Shown: piece after piece, positions 4,374 to 62,237 of the stretch
Layout: each line of letters begins with the position of its first letter
Position numbering within the stretch: the stretch's first letter is position 1
Sequence record: OQ067375.1
Length of the DNA: 64,000 bases
Strand: one strand, 5' to 3'
DNA from: Escherichia phage a48
The notes under the pieces: model-generated
Seen by the model: only the letters and a program-made list of their open reading frames with translations
Database searches by the model: none
What the model was told of the DNA's origin: nothing
Program-made: the position numbers and the translations under genes

Positions 4374-5009
4374 TCACAGTTCAGATGCTACAGTGATTAC
4401 AGCTTCAATGTTTTCTGCCGAGCGTTTAATGTCAAGATACACATTACCGTTTTTAGCGATTTTACATGACATTCCGATATCAGTAAATTTCTGAATATGA
4501 TGTTCCATCATTTTGTATCCAAAAATTCGCATATTTCCATTATTGTTAATTTCAAAATTACGAATTCCGTGAGTGCGTTTTTCTAAAATGGCAAGATAAT
4601 TACTACGATAAGTTTCAACCTTTTTAAGAACAAATCCATTTTCATCTAAAAGTTTTAACATGAGGTCTTTATCTTCTTCCATATCAGAAGTAATTTCGCG
4701 AGCTTTACGAGTTGCTCGTTTTTTTAGCAGTTCCGGAGCGTTTTCCTGTGCGTATAAAGTTGCTGCATTTGAAATAATATCCTGAGCTTCACCAGTAATG
4801 ATTAATCCATCACCAGATTTCTCCACCAGGCCTTTTTTAATCAATACCCCAATATTACTATTAACTACTGCATTACCTAAATCTGGATGCACCTCACGAA
4901 CTTCTGCGGCTGTAATGAAATCTTTCTTAGCAATGGTAATTAAAATCGCAGCAGTTTTTTCATTCAGAACATCGTTAGAAGCTTTGATGATGTAAGTTAC
5001 TTTAGACAT
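4374..5009 (-). CDS. motA: Middle-transcription activator MotA
   Basis: 211 aa, matches recalled T4 MotA. Confidence 0.9.
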   Translation of the reverse strand: MSKVTYIIKASNDVLNEKTAAILITIAKKDFITAAEVREVHPDLGNAVVNSNIGVLIKKGLVEKSGDGLIITGEAQDIISNAATLYAQENAPELLKKRATRKAREITSDMEEDKDLMLKLLDENGFVLKKVETYRSNYLAILEKRTHGIRNFEINNNGNMRIFGYKMMEHHIQKFTDIGMSCKIAKNGNVYLDIKRSAENIEAVITVASEL

Positions 5010-5046
5010 TTTAATCTCCGTTTCAGTTCATTTATTTGATAGTTGT

Positions 5047-5076
5047 ATAGTACCATAAAGCTTTATGCTTGTAAAC
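5047..5076 (-). promoter_or_regulatory. Early sigma70-type promoter (GTTTAC / TACTAT)
   Basis: -35 GTTTAC, about 18 bp spacer, -10 on - strand, upstream of motA. Confidence 0.55.
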
Positions 5077-5107
5077 CGTTTTGTGAAAAAAATTTTAAAA
5101 TAAAAAA

Positions 5108-5127
5108 GGGAGAGCCGAGGCTCTCCC
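5108..5127 (-). terminator. Intrinsic terminator hairpin
   Basis: 8-bp GC stem followed by T-rich run on - strand. Confidence 0.55.
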
Positions 5128-29364: not shown

Positions 29365-29619
29365 CTATTTTATTTCCTCAAGTTCGTTAATCAATAAAAG
29401 TTCTCTGACGCTAAAAACAAAGAAAAATGTGTTCCCATCAACCAGAGCATGACCGCTAATAGAACACCCTCTGCGGAATTTAGAAACTTCACAATCTAGA
29501 ACTGTAAAGGGTTTTAATCCTATGACTTTAGCTGTGCGTCTATTCAGTTCACAACCACTTGCGAATTTTTCCAAATCTTCTTCTGATTTAAACTGATATT
29601 CTCTATTAACTAGCATCAT
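29365..29619 (-). CDS. Hypothetical protein (84 aa)
   Basis: ORF downstream of promoter. Confidence 0.4.
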   Translation of the reverse strand: MMLVNREYQFKSEEDLEKFASGCELNRRTAKVIGLKPFTVLDCEVSKFRRGCSISGHALVDGNTFFFVFSVRELLLINELEEIK

Positions 29620-29650
29620 TTTCTTTTCTCCGCGATTAGCTGATAGAATT

Positions 29651-29680
29651 ACTATAACACAACTCTATCAGCTTGTAAAC
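29651..29680 (-). promoter_or_regulatory. Early sigma70-type promoter (GTTTAC / TATAGT)
   Basis: Consensus elements. Confidence 0.5.
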
Positions 29681-50299: not shown

Positions 50300-50512
50300 C
50301 TATTCCTTACTAAGAGCAGCATTCAGCTTGTTAGTAATTTTATCCAGGCGCTCATTGAACTCACTGGAAGATAAGCCCTTTTCTGGAGAAATTAAACTAA
50401 TCACGAAAAATATAGCAATAAAAGGAATAAGGAAAATAGCTCCAACTGCCATAAACAGAAAGAATGTTACAGTTGTAAGAAAATCAGCTAAACCTTTACG
50501 AAATTTATACAT
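50300..50512 (-). CDS. Hypothetical membrane protein (70 aa)
   Basis: Hydrophobic segment. Confidence 0.45.
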   Translation of the reverse strand: MYKFRKGLADFLTTVTFFLFMAVGAIFLIPFIAIFFVISLISPEKGLSSSEFNERLDKITNKLNAALSKE

Positions 50513-50630
50513 TTACATTTACCTTTAATTGATTAACCAAGCATTGATAAGCACTAAACTATATTGGGAATAAAATTCTGGACCAAAATGAAAAATCATA
50601 TCATTTATAGTATCCATAATGTAATTCAAT

Positions 50631-54967: not shown

Positions 54968-55227
54968 TTAAAATATTCTCGCAGTTGGTCAAATCCACCA
55001 ATATGACTTCCATCAGGAGCAAATACCTGGGGCATTGTCAAGCCGATTTGAGTATCACGACCTAGTTTAGTCAGAAGCTCAGCGATTTTCTCATCATCAA
55101 AAACACCTTTTTCCGGCATAATGTTGATAAATTCAAACGGCTGTTTCTTCACGGTCAAAAGACGTTTTGCATTATCGCAATACACACATTTATGAATGTT
55201 GCTATCATAACCATATACTTTAAACAT
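54964..55227 (-). CDS. nrdC: Thioredoxin/glutaredoxin NrdC
   Basis: 87 aa, CVYC redox motif. Confidence 0.8.
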   Translation of the reverse strand: MFKVYGYDSNIHKCVYCDNAKRLLTVKKQPFEFINIMPEKGVFDDEKIAELLTKLGRDTQIGLTMPQVFAPDGSHIGGFDQLREYFK

Positions 55228-55228
55228 A

Positions 55229-55471
55229 TTATTCCTTAATTCCTAGTACTTGTTTAAAAGTCTCGTCGTAATCAAGACTTTGGCCCGTTTGTTCTTTATG
55301 TTTGTATATAATATCACTTACTTCTGATAGCATATTTTTATATGAACGAGTTAAAGCAGATTTAAGCACGCTGTATCTATCAGGAAATTTACCATGTTCA
55401 TTATAATAAGCTATTGCTAATTCACGGACTGCCTTTTCAGCAGCCTCCATATATTCTTTACGCTTGGTCAT
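55229..55471 (-). CDS. Hypothetical protein (80 aa from internal ATG)
   Basis: Start uncertain. Confidence 0.35.
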
Positions 55472-55772
55472 TTTCTTCTCGGTCAAATCGGTGTTTACAA
55501 TGACGACATTTATAACGAAGATTACTAGTCTGCCAATGGACCAATTGCACCTGTTCAGTTCCACATTCAGGGCAATTAGGAACGTTTTTAGAAGCCCTTT
55601 CACGACGTTCAACCATGACCATTACAGAATCCCAATTAACAGGAGGGCTATAATCATCACAACCATGAATCTTTCCACGCATTTCCAGATCGTCTTCTTC
55701 ACCAGCCATAATAATTTTAATTACACTAGAATTACTTGAAGCTGCAATGTCTTCTAATAGACGATTTTTCAT
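55458..55772 (-). CDS. Hypothetical zinc-ribbon protein (104 aa)
   Basis: CPECG...CRHC motifs. Confidence 0.45.
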
Positions 55773-56695
55773 TTCAATACCTCAATAGCATTGCGTAAAC
55801 CATTTGCTTTGGCGGTTAAAGCCTTAAGAACTTTAGTATGCTCTTCAATTTGTTTTTCAACTTCAATCAAACGAGCATTGAGATATTCGCGTTCTTCTTT
55901 CATAGTATCATTCCCATGATTGGATTTTGGTGTAGGTTTAAATTCACTAGGGTCCTTTAATTTAATAACAAATTTAGTTTCAAACAGCGAAAGACCATAA
56001 TTCGTATTATCATCAAAGGATTTGACTACATCCATATCAGATAATAACACGCGTAAATTATAAGCCAAAGAACTAATAGTTTCATTGTGTTTATTAGCTT
56101 CGCGTGGTTTCATATACGGAAGATTTTTATATATCTCGTGCGGAGCACAAATGATAATTGACAATTCAAATTGCCCATTCTGGGACGATGGAGTGAATTT
56201 AGCCGTAACCCAGTCTTTTACATTCACATTAATAGTACGGTTATCACCATGACAAAACAGTCTACGAGAATGCTTAAAAAGCATATTCACGTTATTATTG
56301 AATTCGTGTGAAAATTCACTAGCAAATTTTTCTTTACTATCTTTAGAAAACCATTCTTCTAAATAAGTTCTTTTCACGTCGTTAATAATATTAAATGTAA
56401 CAACACTAGCATTTGATACATTAGTCTCAATGTAGCTTGGATACATAAATTTTTTAACATTATTAACAGCTATCACAGAAGATAGTAATCGGGAACGTTT
56501 GAACCACTCGAGCAAAGAACCAAGAGAATGTGAATACGCATTTTGTGTATCTTTACAAATATGGTTTTCCCATCCAATATAGTCTAAAAAATCACGAAGA
56601 ATATTATTGATTACTGCTCTGTGTCCTATCTGATAATTACGATGTTTAGTAATAAGACTGTCAAAATAATCAATATAATGTTTACGAGTTTTCAT
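55769..56695 (-). CDS. Hypothetical protein, tandem paralog A (308 aa), C-terminal coiled coil
   Basis: N-terminus MKTRK...; shared core with paralogs B-D. Confidence 0.5.
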   Translation of the reverse strand: MKTRKHYIDYFDSLITKHRNYQIGHRAVINNILRDFLDYIGWENHICKDTQNAYSHSLGSLLEWFKRSRLLSSVIAVNNVKKFMYPSYIETNVSNASVVTFNIINDVKRTYLEEWFSKDSKEKFASEFSHEFNNNVNMLFKHSRRLFCHGDNRTINVNVKDWVTAKFTPSSQNGQFELSIIICAPHEIYKNLPYMKPREANKHNETISSLAYNLRVLLSDMDVVKSFDDNTNYGLSLFETKFVIKLKDPSEFKPTPKSNHGNDTMKEEREYLNARLIEVEKQIEEHTKVLKALTAKANGLRNAIEVLK

Positions 56696-56747
56696 GTTCT
56701 TCTCACTTGGTTAATGATTTATACTCCGAGCCATCCTTGGCTTTAAA

Positions 56748-57745
56748 TTACTTAATTAACTGTAAAGCTTGTTCCAGACGATCAAGACGATTAACAGATT
56801 CTTCCCAAATCCTTTTAGCCTGCTCATATTCTTTCTGCGCTTTATTAGAAATTTCTAGAACTTCTTTATAAGCTTTTTCTAGTGCAATAACTTCTGGACG
56901 AATTTCTATCGGTTCAGGTGAATCATCAAGACATTCCATTAGTTCCTCAAGGGTAGTTTCTTCTTTAGGAGTATTCACAATTTCATCACATTTTTGTTGG
57001 TAAATTTCTTTATCAGTAGGTGAATAAGCACATTTCACTTCACGAAGGCTAATTACGAGTTTATATCCTTCCCAACCGCATATATTCTTAAAAGGATATG
57101 TATGAATATTTTCTACTGTTTCCATACAAAGTAATGCGGTCTCTAATTGACGAGTTATAGTGCTAGCAATTGAGAAAAATTTATTAATATTCTTTTGGTT
57201 AGTTTCTGGTGTAAAAAATCTGTAATTAATAAAAATAGCTACTTTGTTTTTATCAAGCTCATATTCTTCTGCTATAATCATATCATCAGCTAAGGGATGA
57301 ATTGTACGATAATCACCATAACATAATTTAGAAGCTGATTTTAGAATTTGCTTCGTAAAACTCCTAAATTCACTAACCCAACGACGAGTAAAAATATTCT
57401 CAGGGTCTTCTTTAGTATTAAGATGATAAGTATTAACATCACCGAACCAATTGTATCCTACTACATCTTTAGTTCGTTTAATTTCTTTCCCAAATTTACC
57501 AAGAATATCTTGATTAACTAAATATGAAAGAAGACGAGACCCTTTAAAGGTTTTCTTAATATCATCTTTATCCGTGCGGCTAGAAATTTCATGAGCTTCA
57601 TGAATAAATTTACTGGAAGAAACAATACTTACATCAATATTATTGAGCCATTGATAATAGAAATAACATCGTTCTGACTAGACACAGGTTTAACTTTATC
57701 ATCAATAACGCTATTGAATGATTTGATATATTCGTTACGAGTCAT
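56748..57745 (-). pseudogene. Frameshift-disrupted tandem paralog B
   Basis: ATG with GAGGAG SD opens a 38-codon frame ending at 57629; the -1 frame is open from 57677 into the 177-aa ORF with no ATG for about 130 codons. Confidence 0.5.
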
Positions 57746-57773
57746 AATAATCTCCTCAGTAGAAAGTAAGAAC

Positions 57774-57803
57774 ATTATACCACATCCTTGTGGCAAAGTA
57801 AAC
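57774..57803 (-). promoter_or_regulatory. Early sigma70-type promoter (GTTTAC / TATAAT)
   Basis: Consensus elements upstream of paralog B. Confidence 0.55.
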
Positions 57804-58816
57804 TAGTTCAGTGCATTGTTCAGTTTAGAACGTTGCTTTATCAGATTTTGAACCCTTGACTGAGCTTGTTCTAACGCCTTTTCAGCTTCTAGCACTTCAT
57901 TGGTCGCTTTAACGAGTTCATCATCTACTGCCTTAAGAGACTTCTCAATCGCGTCAGCGTGCCATTTTTCAACAGGTTTAAGACTCGGATTTTCAATAGG
58001 AAGAAAATTCACTTTATTGAATTTCCATGCATCTTTATTACCTGAACTATACATCCAAAATTTAGGATCGTTTGATGAGTAATTAGATGAATTTAAGGTA
58101 TCTTGCACTTCTTGCTTTTTCTCTTGCGGGACTTCGTCCTTTCTCAAAAAATCGTATTTAAATGAAACGATCATATCAAGTTCATATGTTGTTGTATGTT
58201 CCCAATTTCGCTCAAAACGAGGTAAAATCTTAGATTGAACAGCAGCAACAACATCCATATACTTAAATGCTTCTGTCAACTGTGATTTAAGGCATTCGCA
58301 AATTGAAAGAGAATTTTTTGTATTAGGTTTAAAGCTAATTCGTGCAGTTCTATTATTTTCTTTTAACGGTCTTACTTCCATCTGAAGAGTATAACCATCA
58401 AATTTCAGATTCTTTAAGTTAATATCAGAGCCTTTTAATCGACTAGCAGTAGACAAAATTTGCTTTAATTGTTTACGGAACAGAGCAATAAATCTCCATT
58501 CAAGACGATAATGATTTGGATTAAAAAATCCAGTTGATAGATCAGTCTTACTTTGACCAACGCCTCGAACAAATAGAGGATTTTTATAATCAATAGTTTT
58601 ACAGAAATCGGTGAGCTGCTCGCGAGCAGTCATTTGTGTAATATACCCTGCTTTACTAAAATTACGCACCCATTCACTGCTATTCGTATACTTAAAGTGA
58701 TGAATAACACGATTAACTTTATCAGGGTCTAAATTATTTTCACACAAAAATGTCATAACATCACGAGTATAACTGGCATTACGAACCATATCTTCAATTT
58801 GAGAACGAGTTTTCAT
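57803..58816 (-). CDS. Hypothetical protein, tandem paralog C (337 aa)
   Basis: N-terminus MKTR...; C-terminal coiled coil. Confidence 0.5.
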   Translation of the reverse strand: MKTRSQIEDMVRNASYTRDVMTFLCENNLDPDKVNRVIHHFKYTNSSEWVRNFSKAGYITQMTAREQLTDFCKTIDYKNPLFVRGVGQSKTDLSTGFFNPNHYRLEWRFIALFRKQLKQILSTASRLKGSDINLKNLKFDGYTLQMEVRPLKENNRTARISFKPNTKNSLSICECLKSQLTEAFKYMDVVAAVQSKILPRFERNWEHTTTYELDMIVSFKYDFLRKDEVPQEKKQEVQDTLNSSNYSSNDPKFWMYSSGNKDAWKFNKVNFLPIENPSLKPVEKWHADAIEKSLKAVDDELVKATNEVLEAEKALEQAQSRVQNLIKQRSKLNNALN

Positions 58817-58824
58817 GGTGTTCC

Positions 58825-59733
58825 TTAAGATTTAAGTAAATCAACAATTTTAATTAATTTTTCACGTTCAGATTTAGCTTTACTACTCAATCCAGATAGT
58901 CTGAAAATTTCATCGTCATATTGTTGAATAGAAATATTCAGCTCTTCAATTTGCTTATTAAAATAATCAATTTGTTCAGAATGTTTTTCGTTACTACGAA
59001 CTGGTGCAGGTTTTGTAGGCAATTTAGTTGAACTGGATTCATCCGGGCGATAAATTAAAATACAATTTGAACCAATAGGGCATTTTGCACCAGACACATA
59101 TTCTAATGTTCCGGCTTCTTTTAAAACTTCAAAAGCTAAACAGAGATGATGACCCATATTGGCATAATCTGTAGAGTGAGCTCTGATATAATAATCATCT
59201 CCACGAGTACTAAATTTAAAACATTTAAGGTCTTCTGTATTATTGGTCTTAAAAATCATTTGTTTATCTAGACCTTTAGCTAATCGAGCACCTAATGCTA
59301 ATAATCGTCGTTGATTTTCCCACAAATCTGCGATCATTTGGTCAAATGATAATTTCGGCATTAGTCGACCATAAAGGTCATATCCTTTATTATAATTGCG
59401 AAGAATTTCACTCGCGTTAATGCGAGACAACGCTCCAATTTTATTAAGGGCTTTCATGATGCGATTAGATAAAAGCATTCCAGACCCGTTTGTTCGTTGT
59501 AAATGTTTTTCTAATCCAAATCCAATATCAACTTTAAACTTATCTAAAATTTCGGCGTGAACATCTTTATCGATAACATTTAAATTTAGTACTGGGTTAA
59601 ATTTATGAAAAAATTTATCTGACTCGTCGCGTTGAAGTACAGTCCATTCATTTGATTTTTTATTAACTAAAGATTTAATTACTGCATTGACATTATTAAT
59701 TGCTACTGACATATTTTCCTCACTCAATTTCAA
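58825..59733 (-). CDS. Hypothetical protein, tandem paralog D (302 aa)
   Basis: Similar size and C-terminal coiled coil; weaker similarity. Confidence 0.45.
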   Translation of the reverse strand: MKLSEENMSVAINNVNAVIKSLVNKKSNEWTVLQRDESDKFFHKFNPVLNLNVIDKDVHAEILDKFKVDIGFGLEKHLQRTNGSGMLLSNRIMKALNKIGALSRINASEILRNYNKGYDLYGRLMPKLSFDQMIADLWENQRRLLALGARLAKGLDKQMIFKTNNTEDLKCFKFSTRGDDYYIRAHSTDYANMGHHLCLAFEVLKEAGTLEYVSGAKCPIGSNCILIYRPDESSSTKLPTKPAPVRSNEKHSEQIDYFNKQIEELNISIQQYDDEIFRLSGLSSKAKSEREKLIKIVDLLKS

Positions 59734-60127
59734 TTTTACTAAATATACAGAATAAGATAGAACAGACTATATAAGCACCACACACAGATTGAACTAATAC
59801 CATTCCAAAGAACCAAACAATATTATCAAACAGTGTCTGTTTTACGTCGAAAGGACGTAAACTTACAGTAATATTATCACCTTTTTCTATTGAAGAATAC
59901 ATCTCTGGGGAAATATATTCACTAAATCTATAACCGTCTTTGAGTTCATATACGGCAATAAACGATAAACTAGACCCCTTTCCTTGTGTTCCTGTAATAG
60001 TATTAACTACAGTAACATCATAATCTTTATAATGCATATAATCATTAATTGCGTAATAACCATATGCAACTACTACACATAAACAACATATCAATAAATT
60101 CAATCTTTTAATTATCAACTGTTTCAT
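59720..60127 (-). CDS. Hypothetical membrane protein (135 aa)
   Basis: N- and C-terminal hydrophobic segments. Confidence 0.5.
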   Translation of the reverse strand: MKQLIIKRLNLLICCLCVVVAYGYYAINDYMHYKDYDVTVVNTITGTQGKGSSLSFIAVYELKDGYRFSEYISPEMYSSIEKGDNITVSLRPFDVKQTLFDNIVWFFGMVLVQSVCGAYIVCSILFCIFSKIEIE

Positions 60128-60182
60128 AATAATCTCAGTTAAAAGGGCTTAGAACCATTATACCATCCTTGGTATAAAGCGG

Positions 60183-60710
60183 TTATGCGAGTACCGTCTT
60201 TAACCGTTCTTCAAACTTCCGAAGAGTATTCTGGCGTTCAGCTCTTTGCTTTTTGTAAGTTTCAATACGCTCTGAAATGAGAGTGTATCGTTCATTTACT
60301 GATTCTTTCATAAAATCAGGAATTTCACGAGAAGCTTTAATCTCATCAAATTTATCAATAACAGCTTGCTCTTCAGCAATTAAGTTATCATACATTAAAA
60401 TATCTTTCTTGATAAACTCAATATCTTCTTGAGTTACACGAGATAATTTAGATGCTTTATCCTTTTTGTACTGTTCGTTAGTATCACGAGACCAGTGTAA
60501 TGTACGATTTTTATTCGTATTCTTGTAAATTTCTACAATACCGATCTCATCGATAATAACGATCCAATTCCAACGGGATTTGTAAATTTGTCCTCCGTCA
60601 ACTGTGATTTCACCTCCGATTGAGATGTCATTAAAGAACTTACTTTGTGCTTCAGATTTAAATTTACCATCGTTGTAATTTACCAAGTTGAAAATATCTT
60701 TAGCGTTCAT
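60183..60710 (-). CDS. Hypothetical protein (175 aa)
   Basis: SD GGAGGA; downstream of promoter cassette. Confidence 0.5.
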   Translation of the reverse strand: MNAKDIFNLVNYNDGKFKSEAQSKFFNDISIGGEITVDGGQIYKSRWNWIVIIDEIGIVEIYKNTNKNRTLHWSRDTNEQYKKDKASKLSRVTQEDIEFIKKDILMYDNLIAEEQAVIDKFDEIKASREIPDFMKESVNERYTLISERIETYKKQRAERQNTLRKFEERLKTVLA

Positions 60711-61174: not shown

Positions 61175-62143
61175 TTATTTCAGAAGAGTAACCTCAGCAA
61201 TTTCTTCCCAACCGTTTTTGTCGGTCATAATAAAGTCAGCAAGATAAAGAGCAGTACGCAGTGAAACATTGCGTAAACGATTAACATTAACTTTCATCCA
61301 TGATAATGCTTTATAAGTTTCTTCATCAGAAAGACCACGCTTTTGCATCATGTCGGTTGAAAGAATAACATCTTCAACCCTGACCATAATTTCTTCATTA
61401 GTGTGAACACCCAAATCCAAATAAACCGAGCGGGACACTAATGCTTGTAAATGTGGAGCAAGTTTAGTACCACGGTCTAATTCGCGGTCAATGTCAACGT
61501 TTGTGATAAAAACAATCGTTCCTTTAAATTCAAACTCACGCTCAATGCCTTTTTCTTCTAAGTAAGAAGACGCAGTGCTCCAGCAGACTTTACGGGTCTC
61601 TCCAGTGTCCAGAGCAGCTTTCAGAAGATTAAGAATGTCCATATCAGAGAAAACATCCACATCATCAATCAAAAGGACAGAATTCTCTTCACGATTATTC
61701 CAGAGCTGTTCATAAAGACCGATACCAGAGATTTTACCGTTAATGCTTTTATATTCAATGTATCCAATATCATTTGCTTTATTTAAAGCTTTATCTAAAG
61801 AATATGTTTTACCTATACCTGCCGCGCCAGAGATAATTAATGAACGAATATTTCCATTAATAATACCATTCGTCATCATTCCCATAACATTAAATCTTTT
61901 ATTAATGCGGGTTTTCATATCTTCATATGATTCTTTAACTTCTTCAACTTTTACACCATCATATGAAATGTCTGATTTGTAAACCCAAACACCGCGACGC
62001 TTACCGTCAATTTCAACAAAAACTTTACCATCTCCTTGTGCATCTACCGGAGCATTATCTGGGAACCATTCACCTAAGAGCTCAAAAGTTCCAGAGATTT
62101 CTTTACCGAAGTAGATACCCTTATTGATAGTTACAGTTTTCAT
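61175..62143 (-). CDS. Putative AAA+/P-loop ATPase (322 aa from ATG; track start is TTG)
   Basis: Walker A GAAGIGKT and Walker B VLLIDDVD. Confidence 0.55.
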   Translation of the reverse strand: MKTVTINKGIYFGKEISGTFELLGEWFPDNAPVDAQGDGKVFVEIDGKRRGVWVYKSDISYDGVKVEEVKESYEDMKTRINKRFNVMGMMTNGIINGNIRSLIISGAAGIGKTYSLDKALNKANDIGYIEYKSINGKISGIGLYEQLWNNREENSVLLIDDVDVFSDMDILNLLKAALDTGETRKVCWSTASSYLEEKGIEREFEFKGTIVFITNVDIDRELDRGTKLAPHLQALVSRSVYLDLGVHTNEEIMVRVEDVILSTDMMQKRGLSDEETYKALSWMKVNVNRLRNVSLRTALYLADFIMTDKNGWEEIAEVTLLK

Positions 62144-62177
62144 TTTATTCTCCAAATCCGTATCAGTTGATAGTTGT

Positions 62178-62207
62178 ATAGTACCATAAAGCTTTATGCT
62201 TGTAAAC
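62178..62207 (-). promoter_or_regulatory. Early sigma70-type promoter (GTTTAC / TACTAT)
   Basis: Repeated promoter-leader cassette. Confidence 0.55.
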
Positions 62208-62237
62208 AGTTTTGTGAAAAATTTTTGAAATAAAAAA

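What the first reader, a model, noticed from the sequence alone, without database searches (positions are those of the whole stretch)
56748..57745. Frameshift-disrupted member of a tandem paralog array
An ATG at 57743..57745 with a GAGGAG Shine-Dalgarno and its own early promoter opens a frame that stops after 38 codons at 57629. The -1 frame is open from 57677 and runs without any ATG for about 130 codons into the ORF annotated from 57281. The N-terminus MTRNEYIKSF... resembles the intact neighbours (MKTRKHYIDYF..., MKTRSQIEDM...), so a roughly 330-aa gene appears broken by a 1-nt indel. No canonical X_XXY_YYZ slippery heptamer is visible in the 49-nt overlap window, so a pseudogene or a homopolymer sequencing error is more likely than programmed frameshifting.
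Basis: seen in the sequence. Interest (0 to 1): 0.5.

Follow-up and report, generated by a model that had tools for sequence, protein, structure and literature searches.

The report
Frameshifted nrdC.4 gene in T-even phage
A T4-like phage carries a copy of the non-essential early gene nrdC.4 that is broken by loss of four bases from a short tandem repeat, an ordinary strain-specific knockout of an accessory gene that other T-even phages, including T2, have also lost independently.

Summary
On the minus strand an ATG at 57745-57743, with its own promoter and GAGGAG ribosome-binding site, opens a frame that stops after 38 codons (TAA 57631-57629). The -1 frame is open from 57677 to 56748.

The window is a Tequatrovirus (T2/T4/T6-like) and the gene is nrdC.4, a single 333-aa gene in T4, T6, SG1 and about 95% of sampled relatives. 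The lesion is not a 1-nt indel or a homopolymer error. One unit of an (ATCA)2 tandem repeat is missing: relatives read ...TCTATTATCAATCAATGG..., the window ...TCTATTATCAATGG.... It is the only indel in the gene, and the only uncompensated frameshift in a conserved coding region found over about 57 kb compared with a relative.

There is no slippery heptamer, homopolymer, stimulatory RNA structure or downstream start codon. This is a recent null allele, not programmed recoding.

Other phages lost nrdC.4 independently. T2 has two frameshifts, one metagenomic phage has a TA duplication, and another lacks the gene.

Only nrdC.3 is a clear paralog (Pfam PF26897, phrog_1435). The relation to nrdC.5, which counteracts Dsr1 in T4, is only suggestive.

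This is ordinary and of low interest.

The parts
57774..57802 (-). Early-type promoter of nrdC.4: -35 TTTACT, 17-nt spacer, TG-extended -10 TATAAT
   Evidence: Consensus scan, 10 of 12 matches with TG. Sequence almost identical in T4, T6 and SG1. Function is inferred from its similarity to the T4 early promoter consensus (own knowledge).
57752..57757 (-). Shine-Dalgarno GAGGAG, 6 nt upstream of the ATG
   Evidence: Read from the sequence. Conserved in T4, T6 and SG1.
57629..57745 (-). 5' fragment of nrdC.4: ATG, 38 codons, then TAA. Only the first 32 codons are in the ancestral frame.
   Evidence: Translation. Alignment to intact orthologs.
57648..57661 (-). Lesion site TCTATTATCAATGG. A single ATCA (57655-57652) stands where relatives have ATCAATCA, so 4 nt are missing.
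   Evidence: Alignments to SG1, T6, T4 and JLBYU31. It is the only indel in the gene.
56748..57677 (-). 3' part of nrdC.4 in the -1 frame: 309 sense codons plus stop. It is homologous to codons 33-333 of intact NrdC.4 from about 57651 onward and has no further disabling mutation.
   Evidence: Translation. After re-inserting ATCA the gene reads as a 333-aa protein matching phrog_1435 over its full length at E 1.8e-163.
56748..57281 (-). Mechanical 177-aa ORF from the first ATG in the -1 frame. It has no Shine-Dalgarno sequence upstream and is probably not translated.
   Evidence: ORF list. Upstream sequence TTAGCTGATGAT has no GGAG-like motif. This product is not on record in the protein collection.
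55769..56695 (-). nrdC.3 (308 aa), the intact tandem paralog of nrdC.4
   Evidence: phrog_1435 at E 2.2e-101, full length. Pfam PF26897 in orthologous loci. blastp to restored NrdC.4 gives 28% identity over 102 aa.
57803..58816 (-). nrdC.5 (337 aa, DUF7235), the upstream neighbour. Its T4 ortholog counteracts Dsr1.
   Evidence: Pfam PF23882 at E 8e-126. Srikant et al. 2022, PMC9391042.

Best explanation
This is a recent, strain-specific null allele of nrdC.4, an accessory early gene of T-even phages.

Intact orthologs read I-I-N-Q-W, encoded by ATT ATC AAT CAA TGG. This stretch contains the tandem tetranucleotide ATCA-ATCA. One unit has been lost, which is the classic outcome of slipped-strand mispairing during replication (the Streisinger model, originally worked out on T4).

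The loss shifts the reading frame after codon 32. Ribosomes that start at the conserved promoter, Shine-Dalgarno sequence and ATG make a 38-residue peptide and terminate at TAA 57631-57629. The remaining roughly 300 codons lie in the -1 frame. They have no start codon for 132 codons and no ribosome-binding site at the first ATG, so they are most likely untranslated.

The phage tolerates the loss because nrdC.4 is dispensable. It sits in the nrdC.1-nrdC.11 block of host-range and counter-defence accessory genes, and several other T-even phages have lost it independently.

Shown here: the lesion, its repeat context, its uniqueness, the intact state of orthologs, and the absence of recoding signals.

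Inferred: that the deletion is biological rather than a sequencing or assembly error, that the 3' part is not expressed, and that intact NrdC.4 acts in host range or counter-defence.
For: - **Identity of the gene.** The window is a Tequatrovirus, 96-97% identical to T2-like phages over 24 kb. Gene order is that of T4: nrdC, nrdC.1 ... nrdC.8.
- **Lesion.** A 4-nt deletion in (ATCA)2 is the only indel against SG1, T6, T4 and JLBYU31. Re-inserting ATCA gives a clean 333-aa ORF that matches phrog_1435 end to end.
- **Orthologs are functional genes.** dN/dS among intact orthologs is 0.07-0.35. In a spread sample of 60 of 553 phage records, 57 have one uninterrupted full-length match.
- **The lesion is recent.** There is no second disabling mutation. 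The 3' two-thirds differ from SG1 at 4 of 672 nt. dN/dS of the restored window gene against relatives is 0.26-0.46.
- **The allele was not found elsewhere.** A megablast of the 36-nt junction found nothing in 50,697 phage records. All 30 listed hits of a 121-nt query carry the extra 4 nt. IMG/VR holds 0 contigs with the deletion pattern and 3 with the intact pattern.
- **The sequence is not generally error-prone.** Over about 57 kb aligned to JLBYU31, this was the only uncompensated frameshifting indel I found inside a conserved CDS. I classified the listed indels by hand against the annotated CDS coordinates.
- **No recoding signals.** There is no slippery heptamer, no homopolymer, and no ATG/GTG/TTG/CTG in the -1 frame for 132 codons. 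The RNA fold z-score is -0.5 and there is no Rfam match.
- **The gene is dispensable.** T2 has a 1-nt and a 2-nt deletion at other sites. The metagenomic scaffold L009/L010 has a TA duplication. Scaffold L018 lacks nrdC.4 altogether and carries an nrdC.5::nrdC.3 fusion. In phage Manna only aa 251-333 are matched.
- **Literature.** T4 clones with deletions that include nrdC.5 are viable, and none of the deletions in those evolved clones touched an essential gene (PMC9391042).
Against: - No reads are available, and the source genome is absent from every collection searched. An assembly or consensus error therefore cannot be excluded.
- The junction searches need near-exact matches in a variable region. 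A deletion allele in a diverged sequence background could have been missed.
- Non-expression of the 3' part is inferred from sequence only.
- The function of NrdC.4 is untested. The link to counter-defence rests on genomic neighbourhood and a weak similarity to NrdC.5.
Confidence: 0.8

Rival explanations
1. Sequencing or assembly artefact. The phage really has ATCAATCA and an intact nrdC.4, and four bases were dropped in the consensus.
For: - The allele is unique among all relatives examined.
- The rest of the gene is pristine.
- Short tandem repeats are places where long-read consensus callers can drop a unit (own knowledge).
- No reads are available to check.
Against: - The site is not a homopolymer.
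- A 4-nt consensus deletion in a two-unit repeat is an unusual error for any current platform (own knowledge).
- No other uncompensated frameshift was found in conserved coding sequence over about 57 kb compared with JLBYU31, so the assembly does not look indel-prone.
- Independent natural knockouts of the same gene exist, so a real knockout is not implausible.
Confidence: 0.13
2. Programmed recoding. A -1 (or +2) ribosomal frameshift, transcriptional slippage or gene-60-type bypass in the 49-nt overlap yields full-length NrdC.4.
For: - The 3' frame is fully open and undegraded.
- T4 is the classic home of translational bypassing, in gene 60 (own knowledge).
Against: - There is no X_XXY_YYZ heptamer in any frame and no homopolymer of 4 or more bases for polymerase slippage.
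- The local RNA is no more structured than shuffled controls, z = -0.5. There is no Rfam element.
- The codon before the stop is ATG, and no ATG landing codon exists in the -1 frame for 132 codons.
- The split arrangement is not conserved. T4, T6, SG1, JLBYU31 and sutha, and 57 of 60 sampled records, have one continuous ORF.
- The open 3' frame is explained by the youth of the lesion.
Confidence: 0.02
3. Functional split. The 38-aa N-terminal peptide and/or a C-terminal fragment (the 177-aa ORF from ATG 57281, or a product from a non-canonical start) retain or gain a function, so the locus is not simply dead.
For: - The promoter, Shine-Dalgarno sequence and ATG are intact, so the 38-aa peptide should be made.
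- In the AlphaFold model of the intact protein, residues from about 155 onward contain a strand pair (158-174), a long helix (185-208), a further strand pair (212-235) and the C-terminal long helix (285-332).
Against: - There is no ribosome-binding site before ATG 57281 and no other canonical start in the -1 frame.
- No such 177-aa product is on record anywhere.
- Only 32 native residues remain in the peptide. These are the first two helices of an N-terminal helical region.
- Nothing indicates selection for this state.
Confidence: 0.05

Closest known systems
T4 nrdC.4 (Y04P_BPT4; NP_049702), Pfam PF26897 Phage_T4_Y04OP, phrog_1435
   Same: - Same genomic position, between nrdC.5 and nrdC.3, with the same promoter, Shine-Dalgarno sequence and start codon.
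- 71 nucleotide differences over 1002 nt.
- The restored protein matches phrog_1435 over its full length at E 1.8e-163.
   Different: The window copy lacks 4 nt (one ATCA unit) and cannot encode the 333-aa protein.
Streisinger-type frameshift mutations at short repeats in T4 (lysozyme e and rII genes; own knowledge)
   Same: One repeat unit of a short tandem repeat is lost, shifting the reading frame, in a T-even phage genome.
   Different: - The classic cases were mostly 1-2 nt changes in base runs, induced or selected in the laboratory.
- This is a spontaneous 4-nt unit loss found in a genome sequence.
- The mechanism is inferred from sequence context, not demonstrated.
nrdC.4 pseudogene of phage T2 (AP018813, NC_054931)
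   Same: The same gene is inactivated by frameshifts in a closely related phage and annotated there as two fragments.
   Different: - T2 has two different lesions: a 1-nt deletion at nt 38 and a 2-nt deletion at nt 513-514. It keeps ATCAATCA.
- The events are therefore independent of the window's deletion.
T4 nrdC.5 (DUF7235), reported to counteract the Dsr1 defence of E. coli ECOR17 (Srikant et al. 2022, PMC9391042)
   Same: - Adjacent early gene of similar size.
- Similar secondary-structure order in the C-terminal two-thirds, ending in a long helix.
- Shared motif RW..FR..KQIL.SASKL.
- hhalign probability 53%, E 1.4e-4 over 194 columns.
   Different: - Different Pfam and PHROG families.
- Not recovered by an HMMER profile of the NrdC.3/4 family from 1.84 billion representatives.
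- No anti-Dsr1 or other activity has been shown for NrdC.4.
Programmed -1 frameshifting and gene-60 bypassing
   Same: Two overlapping frames that together encode one protein.
   Different: None of the defining signals is present, and the arrangement is not conserved.

Membership tests
NrdC.3/NrdC.4 family (Pfam PF26897 Phage_T4_Y04OP; phrog_1435) | Significant full-length match to the family profile | tested here: met
   - Restored 333-aa sequence: phrog_1435 E 1.8e-163, profile positions 1-334 of 334.
- All 64 homolog clusters carry precomputed PF26897.
- The local Pfam copy did not contain or hit this model.
NrdC.3/NrdC.4 family (Pfam PF26897 Phage_T4_Y04OP; phrog_1435) | Orthologous position between nrdC.5 and nrdC.3, upstream of nrdC | tested here: met
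   Gene order in the window matches T4, T6, SG1 and JLBYU31.
NrdC.3/NrdC.4 family (Pfam PF26897 Phage_T4_Y04OP; phrog_1435) | Intact open reading frame able to encode the protein | tested here: not met
   The frame is broken after codon 32, with a stop after 38 codons. This is a pseudogene copy of a family member.
Tandem paralog array including nrdC.5 and nrdC.6 | Detectable homology between NrdC.4 and NrdC.5 | tested here: inconclusive
   - blastp: 24% identity over 209 aa, E 0.01 in a 5-sequence database.
- hhalign profile-profile: probability 53%, E 1.4e-4.
- HMMER profile search did not find DUF7235 proteins.
- The NrdC.5 model was too poor (pLDDT 51.7) for a structural test.
Tandem paralog array including nrdC.5 and nrdC.6 | Detectable homology between NrdC.4 and NrdC.6 | tested here: not met
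   hhalign probability 0.1%. No blastp hit. Different PHROG and Pfam families.
Programmed -1 ribosomal frameshift site | Slippery heptamer X_XXY_YYZ in the overlap of the two frames | tested here: not met
   None in any frame between 57680 and 57629.
Programmed -1 ribosomal frameshift site | Stimulatory downstream RNA structure | tested here: not met
   MFE -23.1 kcal/mol against a shuffle mean of -21.5, z = -0.5. No Rfam family.
Programmed -1 ribosomal frameshift site | Two-frame arrangement conserved in relatives | tested here: not met
   Relatives have one continuous 1002-nt ORF.
Translational bypass of the T4 gene 60 type | Matching take-off and landing codons flanking a stop, with landing in the downstream frame | tested here: not met
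   The codon before TAA is ATG, and there is no ATG in the -1 frame for 132 codons. I did not do an exhaustive search of other codon pairs.
Slipped-strand (Streisinger) frameshift mutation | The indel equals one unit of a pre-existing short tandem repeat seen in the ancestral sequence | tested here: met
   ATCAATCA in T4, T6, SG1, T2 and JLBYU31 against ATCA in the window.
Slipped-strand (Streisinger) frameshift mutation | The mutation arose by replication slippage | not testable with these tools
   The mechanism is inferred from sequence context only.
Phase-variable simple-sequence contingency locus | Long repeat tract, with several repeat-number alleles segregating among relatives | tested here: not met
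   - The intact allele has only two units.
- No other record was found with one unit.
- 57 of 60 sampled records give a single uninterrupted full-length match.
Anti-Dsr1 / counter-defence proteins of T4 | Experimental rescue of phage on a host carrying the defence system | not testable with these tools
   This has been shown only for T4 nrdC.5 (PMC9391042). The searched literature reports no functional data for nrdC.4.

The most novel reading that the evidence does not exclude
The most novel reading my evidence does not exclude is a reversible on/off site. In this reading the ATCA repeat at codons 31-33 lets T-even populations toggle an accessory, possibly counter-defence, gene between (ATCA)2 and (ATCA)1, and the window caught the 'off' state. 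A related variant is that low-level ribosomal or polymerase slippage at this non-canonical site still yields some full-length NrdC.4. Either would make nrdC.4 a phage contingency gene.
Probability: 0.03. Interest if true: 0.5.

Novelty: already known. Interest (0 to 1): 0.12.

Why it matters
It matters little beyond annotation. The locus should be labelled as an nrdC.4 pseudogene (frameshifted), not as a 177-aa hypothetical protein plus a small ORF.

There are two modest points of interest.

1. nrdC.4 joins a list of T-even accessory early genes that are repeatedly lost in nature and in laboratory strains: T2, two metagenomic phages, and this phage. This fits the view that the nrdC.x block holds host-specific genes that are dispensable on permissive hosts.
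2. The neighbouring nrdC.5 overcomes Dsr1. A naturally nrdC.4-null phage and a repaired isogenic derivative would therefore be a ready-made pair for asking which host factor or defence NrdC.4 addresses.

Tried and rejected
- **Looking for the same allele elsewhere.** The 36-nt junction megablast against phages found no match. The deletion pattern gave 0 hits in IMG/VR. Exact look-ups of the 177-aa ORF product and of the window's NrdC.5 found nothing on record. The source genome could not be identified, so no read-level or independent-assembly check was possible.
- **Programmed frameshift or bypass.** Rejected after the heptamer and homopolymer scan, RNA folding and Rfam search.
- **Long-standing pseudogene under relaxed selection.** Rejected. 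There is no second lesion. Only 7 window-private nucleotides were found against 8 relatives, and dN/dS is similar to that of the intact orthologs.
- **General poor sequence quality.** Not supported.
- **Function from structure.**
  - BFVD returned only uncharacterised proteins of T4-like phages.
- **Tying NrdC.4 to NrdC.5.**
  - NrdC.5 homologs are all more than 81% identical.
  - Its model is therefore poor (pLDDT 51.7) and its BFVD hits are weak.
  - The HMMER profile of the NrdC.3/4 family found only 9 representatives and no DUF7235 protein.
- **Literature.** The searches found no functional data for nrdC.3, nrdC.4 or nrdC.6.
- **Truncated clusters P0037 and P0035.** These are contig-end artefacts, not evidence of disruption.
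- **L011.** It shows fragments of both nrdC.4 and nrdC.3 but may be a low-quality assembly.

Full report
**What is in the sequence.**
- An ATG at 57745-57743 is preceded by GAGGAG (57757-57752) and by a promoter-like TTTACT-17-TATAAT with an upstream TG (57802-57774).
- The frame reads MTRNEYIKSFNSVIDDKVKPVSSQNDVISIINGSIILM and stops at TAA 57631-57629.
- The -1 frame follows a TAG at 57680-57678 and is open from 57677 to 56748, 309 sense codons.
- Its first 132 codons contain no ATG, GTG, TTG or CTG. The mechanical ORF list therefore shows only a 177-aa ORF from ATG 57281.

**What the locus is.**
- The window is a Tequatrovirus, 96-97% identical over 24 kb to T2, RB27, JLBYU31 and similar phages. 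It is not itself present in the phage collection.
- The downstream gene at 55227-54964 is nrdC (thioredoxin/glutaredoxin). The genes at higher coordinates follow the T4 order nrdC.1, nrdC.2, nrdC.3 (56695-55769), the broken gene, nrdC.5 (58816-57803), nrdC.6, nrdC.7, nrdC.8.
- The broken gene is therefore nrdC.4. In T4 (NP_049702) and T6 it is a single 1002-nt, 333-aa gene. In SG1 it is annotated as 343 aa from an upstream start.

**The lesion.**
- Alignment of the whole gene with SG1, T6 and T4 shows exactly one indel. The relatives read TCTATT-ATCA-ATCA-ATGG (T4...ATCAATCAGTGG). The window reads TCTATT-ATCA-ATGG. A separate blastn alignment with JLBYU31 shows the same 4-nt deletion.
- One unit of a two-unit tetranucleotide tandem repeat is missing. 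The retained unit is at 57655-57652.
The site contains no homopolymer of 4 or more bases.
- Re-inserting ATCA gives an uninterrupted 333-aa protein. It matches phrog_1435 over its full length at E 1.8e-163.
- Of the 13 extra nucleotides that relatives have over the 1301-nt query, the other 9 are an in-frame difference at the end of nrdC.5.

**Age and reality of the lesion.**
- *The gene is maintained elsewhere.*
  - Intact orthologs are under purifying selection, with pairwise dN/dS of 0.07-0.35.
  - In an evenly spread sample of 60 of 553 matching phage records, 57 have a single full-length tblastn match.
- *The break is recent.*
  - The window copy has no second disabling mutation.
  - Its 3' two-thirds differ from SG1 at only 4 of 672 positions.
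  - Only 7 nucleotides are private to it against 8 relatives.
  - Its dN/dS against relatives, 0.26-0.46, is not clearly elevated.
- *The allele was not found anywhere else.*
  - A 36-nt junction query that can only seed on the deletion allele found nothing in 50,697 phage records.
  - All 30 listed hits of a 121-nt query span 125 nt.
  - IMG/VR has 0 contigs with the deletion pattern and 3 with the intact pattern.
  - The window's exact NrdC.3 protein occurs in KM607001.1 and two Logan contigs, all with an intact 333- or 343-aa nrdC.4 next to it.
- *An artefact remains possible.* Uniqueness together with a pristine remainder would also fit a sequencing or assembly artefact, and no reads are available.
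  - Against that, a two-unit tetranucleotide repeat is not a typical error site.
  - Over about 57 kb aligned to JLBYU31 I found no other uncompensated frameshifting indel inside a conserved coding region. The rest were intergenic, at gene boundaries, or compensated within divergent patches.
- I put a real mutation at about 0.8 and an artefact at about 0.13.

**Recoding.**
- The 49-nt overlap has no X_XXY_YYZ heptamer in any frame and no run for polymerase slippage.
- The surrounding 131 nt fold no better than shuffled controls, z = -0.5. No Rfam family matches 55000-60000.
- A gene-60-like hop from the ATG before the stop has no ATG landing codon in the -1 frame.
- The two-frame arrangement is not conserved in relatives.
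- Programmed frameshifting or bypassing is therefore not supported.
- The ATG at 57281 has no Shine-Dalgarno sequence, so the 3' part is most likely silent. This is an inference.

**Mechanism.** Loss of one unit of a short tandem repeat is the signature of slipped-strand mispairing during replication. That model was first proposed for T4 frameshift mutants (own knowledge). Here the context is shown and the mechanism is inferred.

**Dispensability and recurrent loss.**
- T2 (AP018813, and NC_054931 by tblastn) keeps ATCAATCA. It has a 1-nt deletion at nt 38 and a 2-nt deletion at nt 513-514 of nrdC.4, and the gene is annotated as two fragments.
- A 171-kb metagenomic scaffold (L009) and a Logan assembly of the same sample (L010) have a TA duplication near nt 407. 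It splits the gene into 146- and 211-aa ORFs.
- Another 167-kb scaffold (L018), seen in several contigs, lacks nrdC.4 completely and carries an nrdC.5::nrdC.3 fusion (P0121).
- In phage Manna only residues 251-333 are matched. Phage Sf25 matches in two pieces over 1248 nt, which I did not examine.
- BFVD also holds 158- and 155-aa NrdC.4 fragments from phage G8 and from T2.
- In the literature, T4 clones with deletions that include nrdC.5 are viable on laboratory E. coli, and none of the deletions in those evolved clones touched an essential gene (PMC9391042).

**The 'paralog array' and function.**
- *Paralogy.*
  - NrdC.3 and NrdC.4 are true paralogs. Both match phrog_1435 end to end, and both are PF26897 'Phage_T4_Y04OP'.
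  - NrdC.5 is DUF7235 / phrog_2351 and NrdC.6 is PF26899 / phrog_2257.
  - NrdC.4 against NrdC.5 gives 24% identity over 209 aa by blastp. Profile-profile hhalign gives probability 53%, E 1.4e-4 over 194 columns, with a shared RW..FR..KQIL.SASKL motif.
  - An HMMER profile of the NrdC.3/4 family found only 9 representatives among 1.84 billion and no DUF7235 protein.
  - NrdC.6 shows nothing.
- *Structure.*
  - The AlphaFold model of an NrdC.4 ortholog (P0002, 92% identical; pLDDT 83.7) shows an N-terminal helical region, two beta-strand clusters separated by helices, a disordered linker and a 48-residue C-terminal helix.
  - It matches only uncharacterised 300-370-aa proteins of other T4-like phages in BFVD.
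  - The NrdC.5 model was too poor (pLDDT 51.7) for a structural comparison, though its order of secondary-structure elements is similar.
- *Functional lead.* The only functional lead is by neighbourhood. T4 nrdC.5 restores growth on hosts carrying the Dsr1 sirtuin defence (PMC9391042). A counter-defence or host-range role for NrdC.4 is a reasonable guess, not a finding.

**Verdict.** This is a pseudogene, caused by a 4-nt repeat-unit deletion rather than a 1-nt or homopolymer error, and only nrdC.3 is a firm paralog. It is an ordinary, strain-specific null allele of a known, dispensable T-even accessory gene. Its interest is low, apart from correcting the annotation and offering a natural knockout for asking what NrdC.4 does.

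Noticed in passing
window 50505-50520 (minus-strand gene start of the 55.8 homolog): Relative to JLBYU31 the window has a 4-nt insertion just upstream of the start codon of the 55.8-like gene. On the coding strand it reads GGTAAATGTAAATGTATAAA, which creates an ATG-TAA-ATG arrangement in front of the gene. It is another tandem-repeat-type indel, here outside the coding sequence.
   Followed up: partly
L013 (T2, AP018813 43000-52000): In T2 several genes of the nrdC.x block, not only nrdC.4, are annotated as fragments: nrdC.6 as 198 + 606 nt, plus short calls at the nrdC.2, nrdC.7 and 49.2 positions. Only the nrdC.4 lesions were verified by alignment.
   Followed up: partly
L018 2070-3400 and L019 (metagenomic T-even scaffolds): P0121 is a chimera of the middle of NrdC.5 and the C-terminal half of NrdC.3. 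The junction is at ...AWKFNKVN|MLFKH..., where both parents have an FN..VN motif. nrdC.4 is deleted, and a 115-aa ORF with no Pfam hit on record lies just upstream of the fusion gene. This looks like a microhomology-mediated deletion across three adjacent genes.
   Followed up: partly
window 57778-57795 and 56726-56740: The promoter regions upstream of nrdC.4 and nrdC.3 each contain a small G+C-rich hairpin with a similar core: GCCACAAGGATGTGG and CCAAGGATGGCTCGG on the coding strand. The terminator scan picked both up. They may be a remnant of the nrdC.3/nrdC.4 duplication or a shared regulatory element.
   Followed up: no
window 55769-60710 (nrdC.3.4.5.6.8): All five proteins end in a sequence of about 40-50 residues rich in E, K, Q and L that looks like a coiled coil. 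AlphaFold predicts a single long C-terminal helix for NrdC.4 (285-332) and NrdC.5 (281-336). This is a shared C-terminal module across otherwise different families in the block.
   Followed up: partly
window 57803-58816 (nrdC.5): The window's NrdC.5 is 337 aa against 340-342 aa in most relatives. Compared with JLBYU31 it has in-frame differences of -9, -6 and +3 nt, plus a compensated +4/-4 pair. The exact protein is not on record.
   Followed up: no
window 5003-5123 and 62133-62226: Short stretches about 85% identical to non-syntenic places in JLBYU31 (56141-56261 and 29569-29665). These suggest dispersed intergenic repeats.
   Followed up: no
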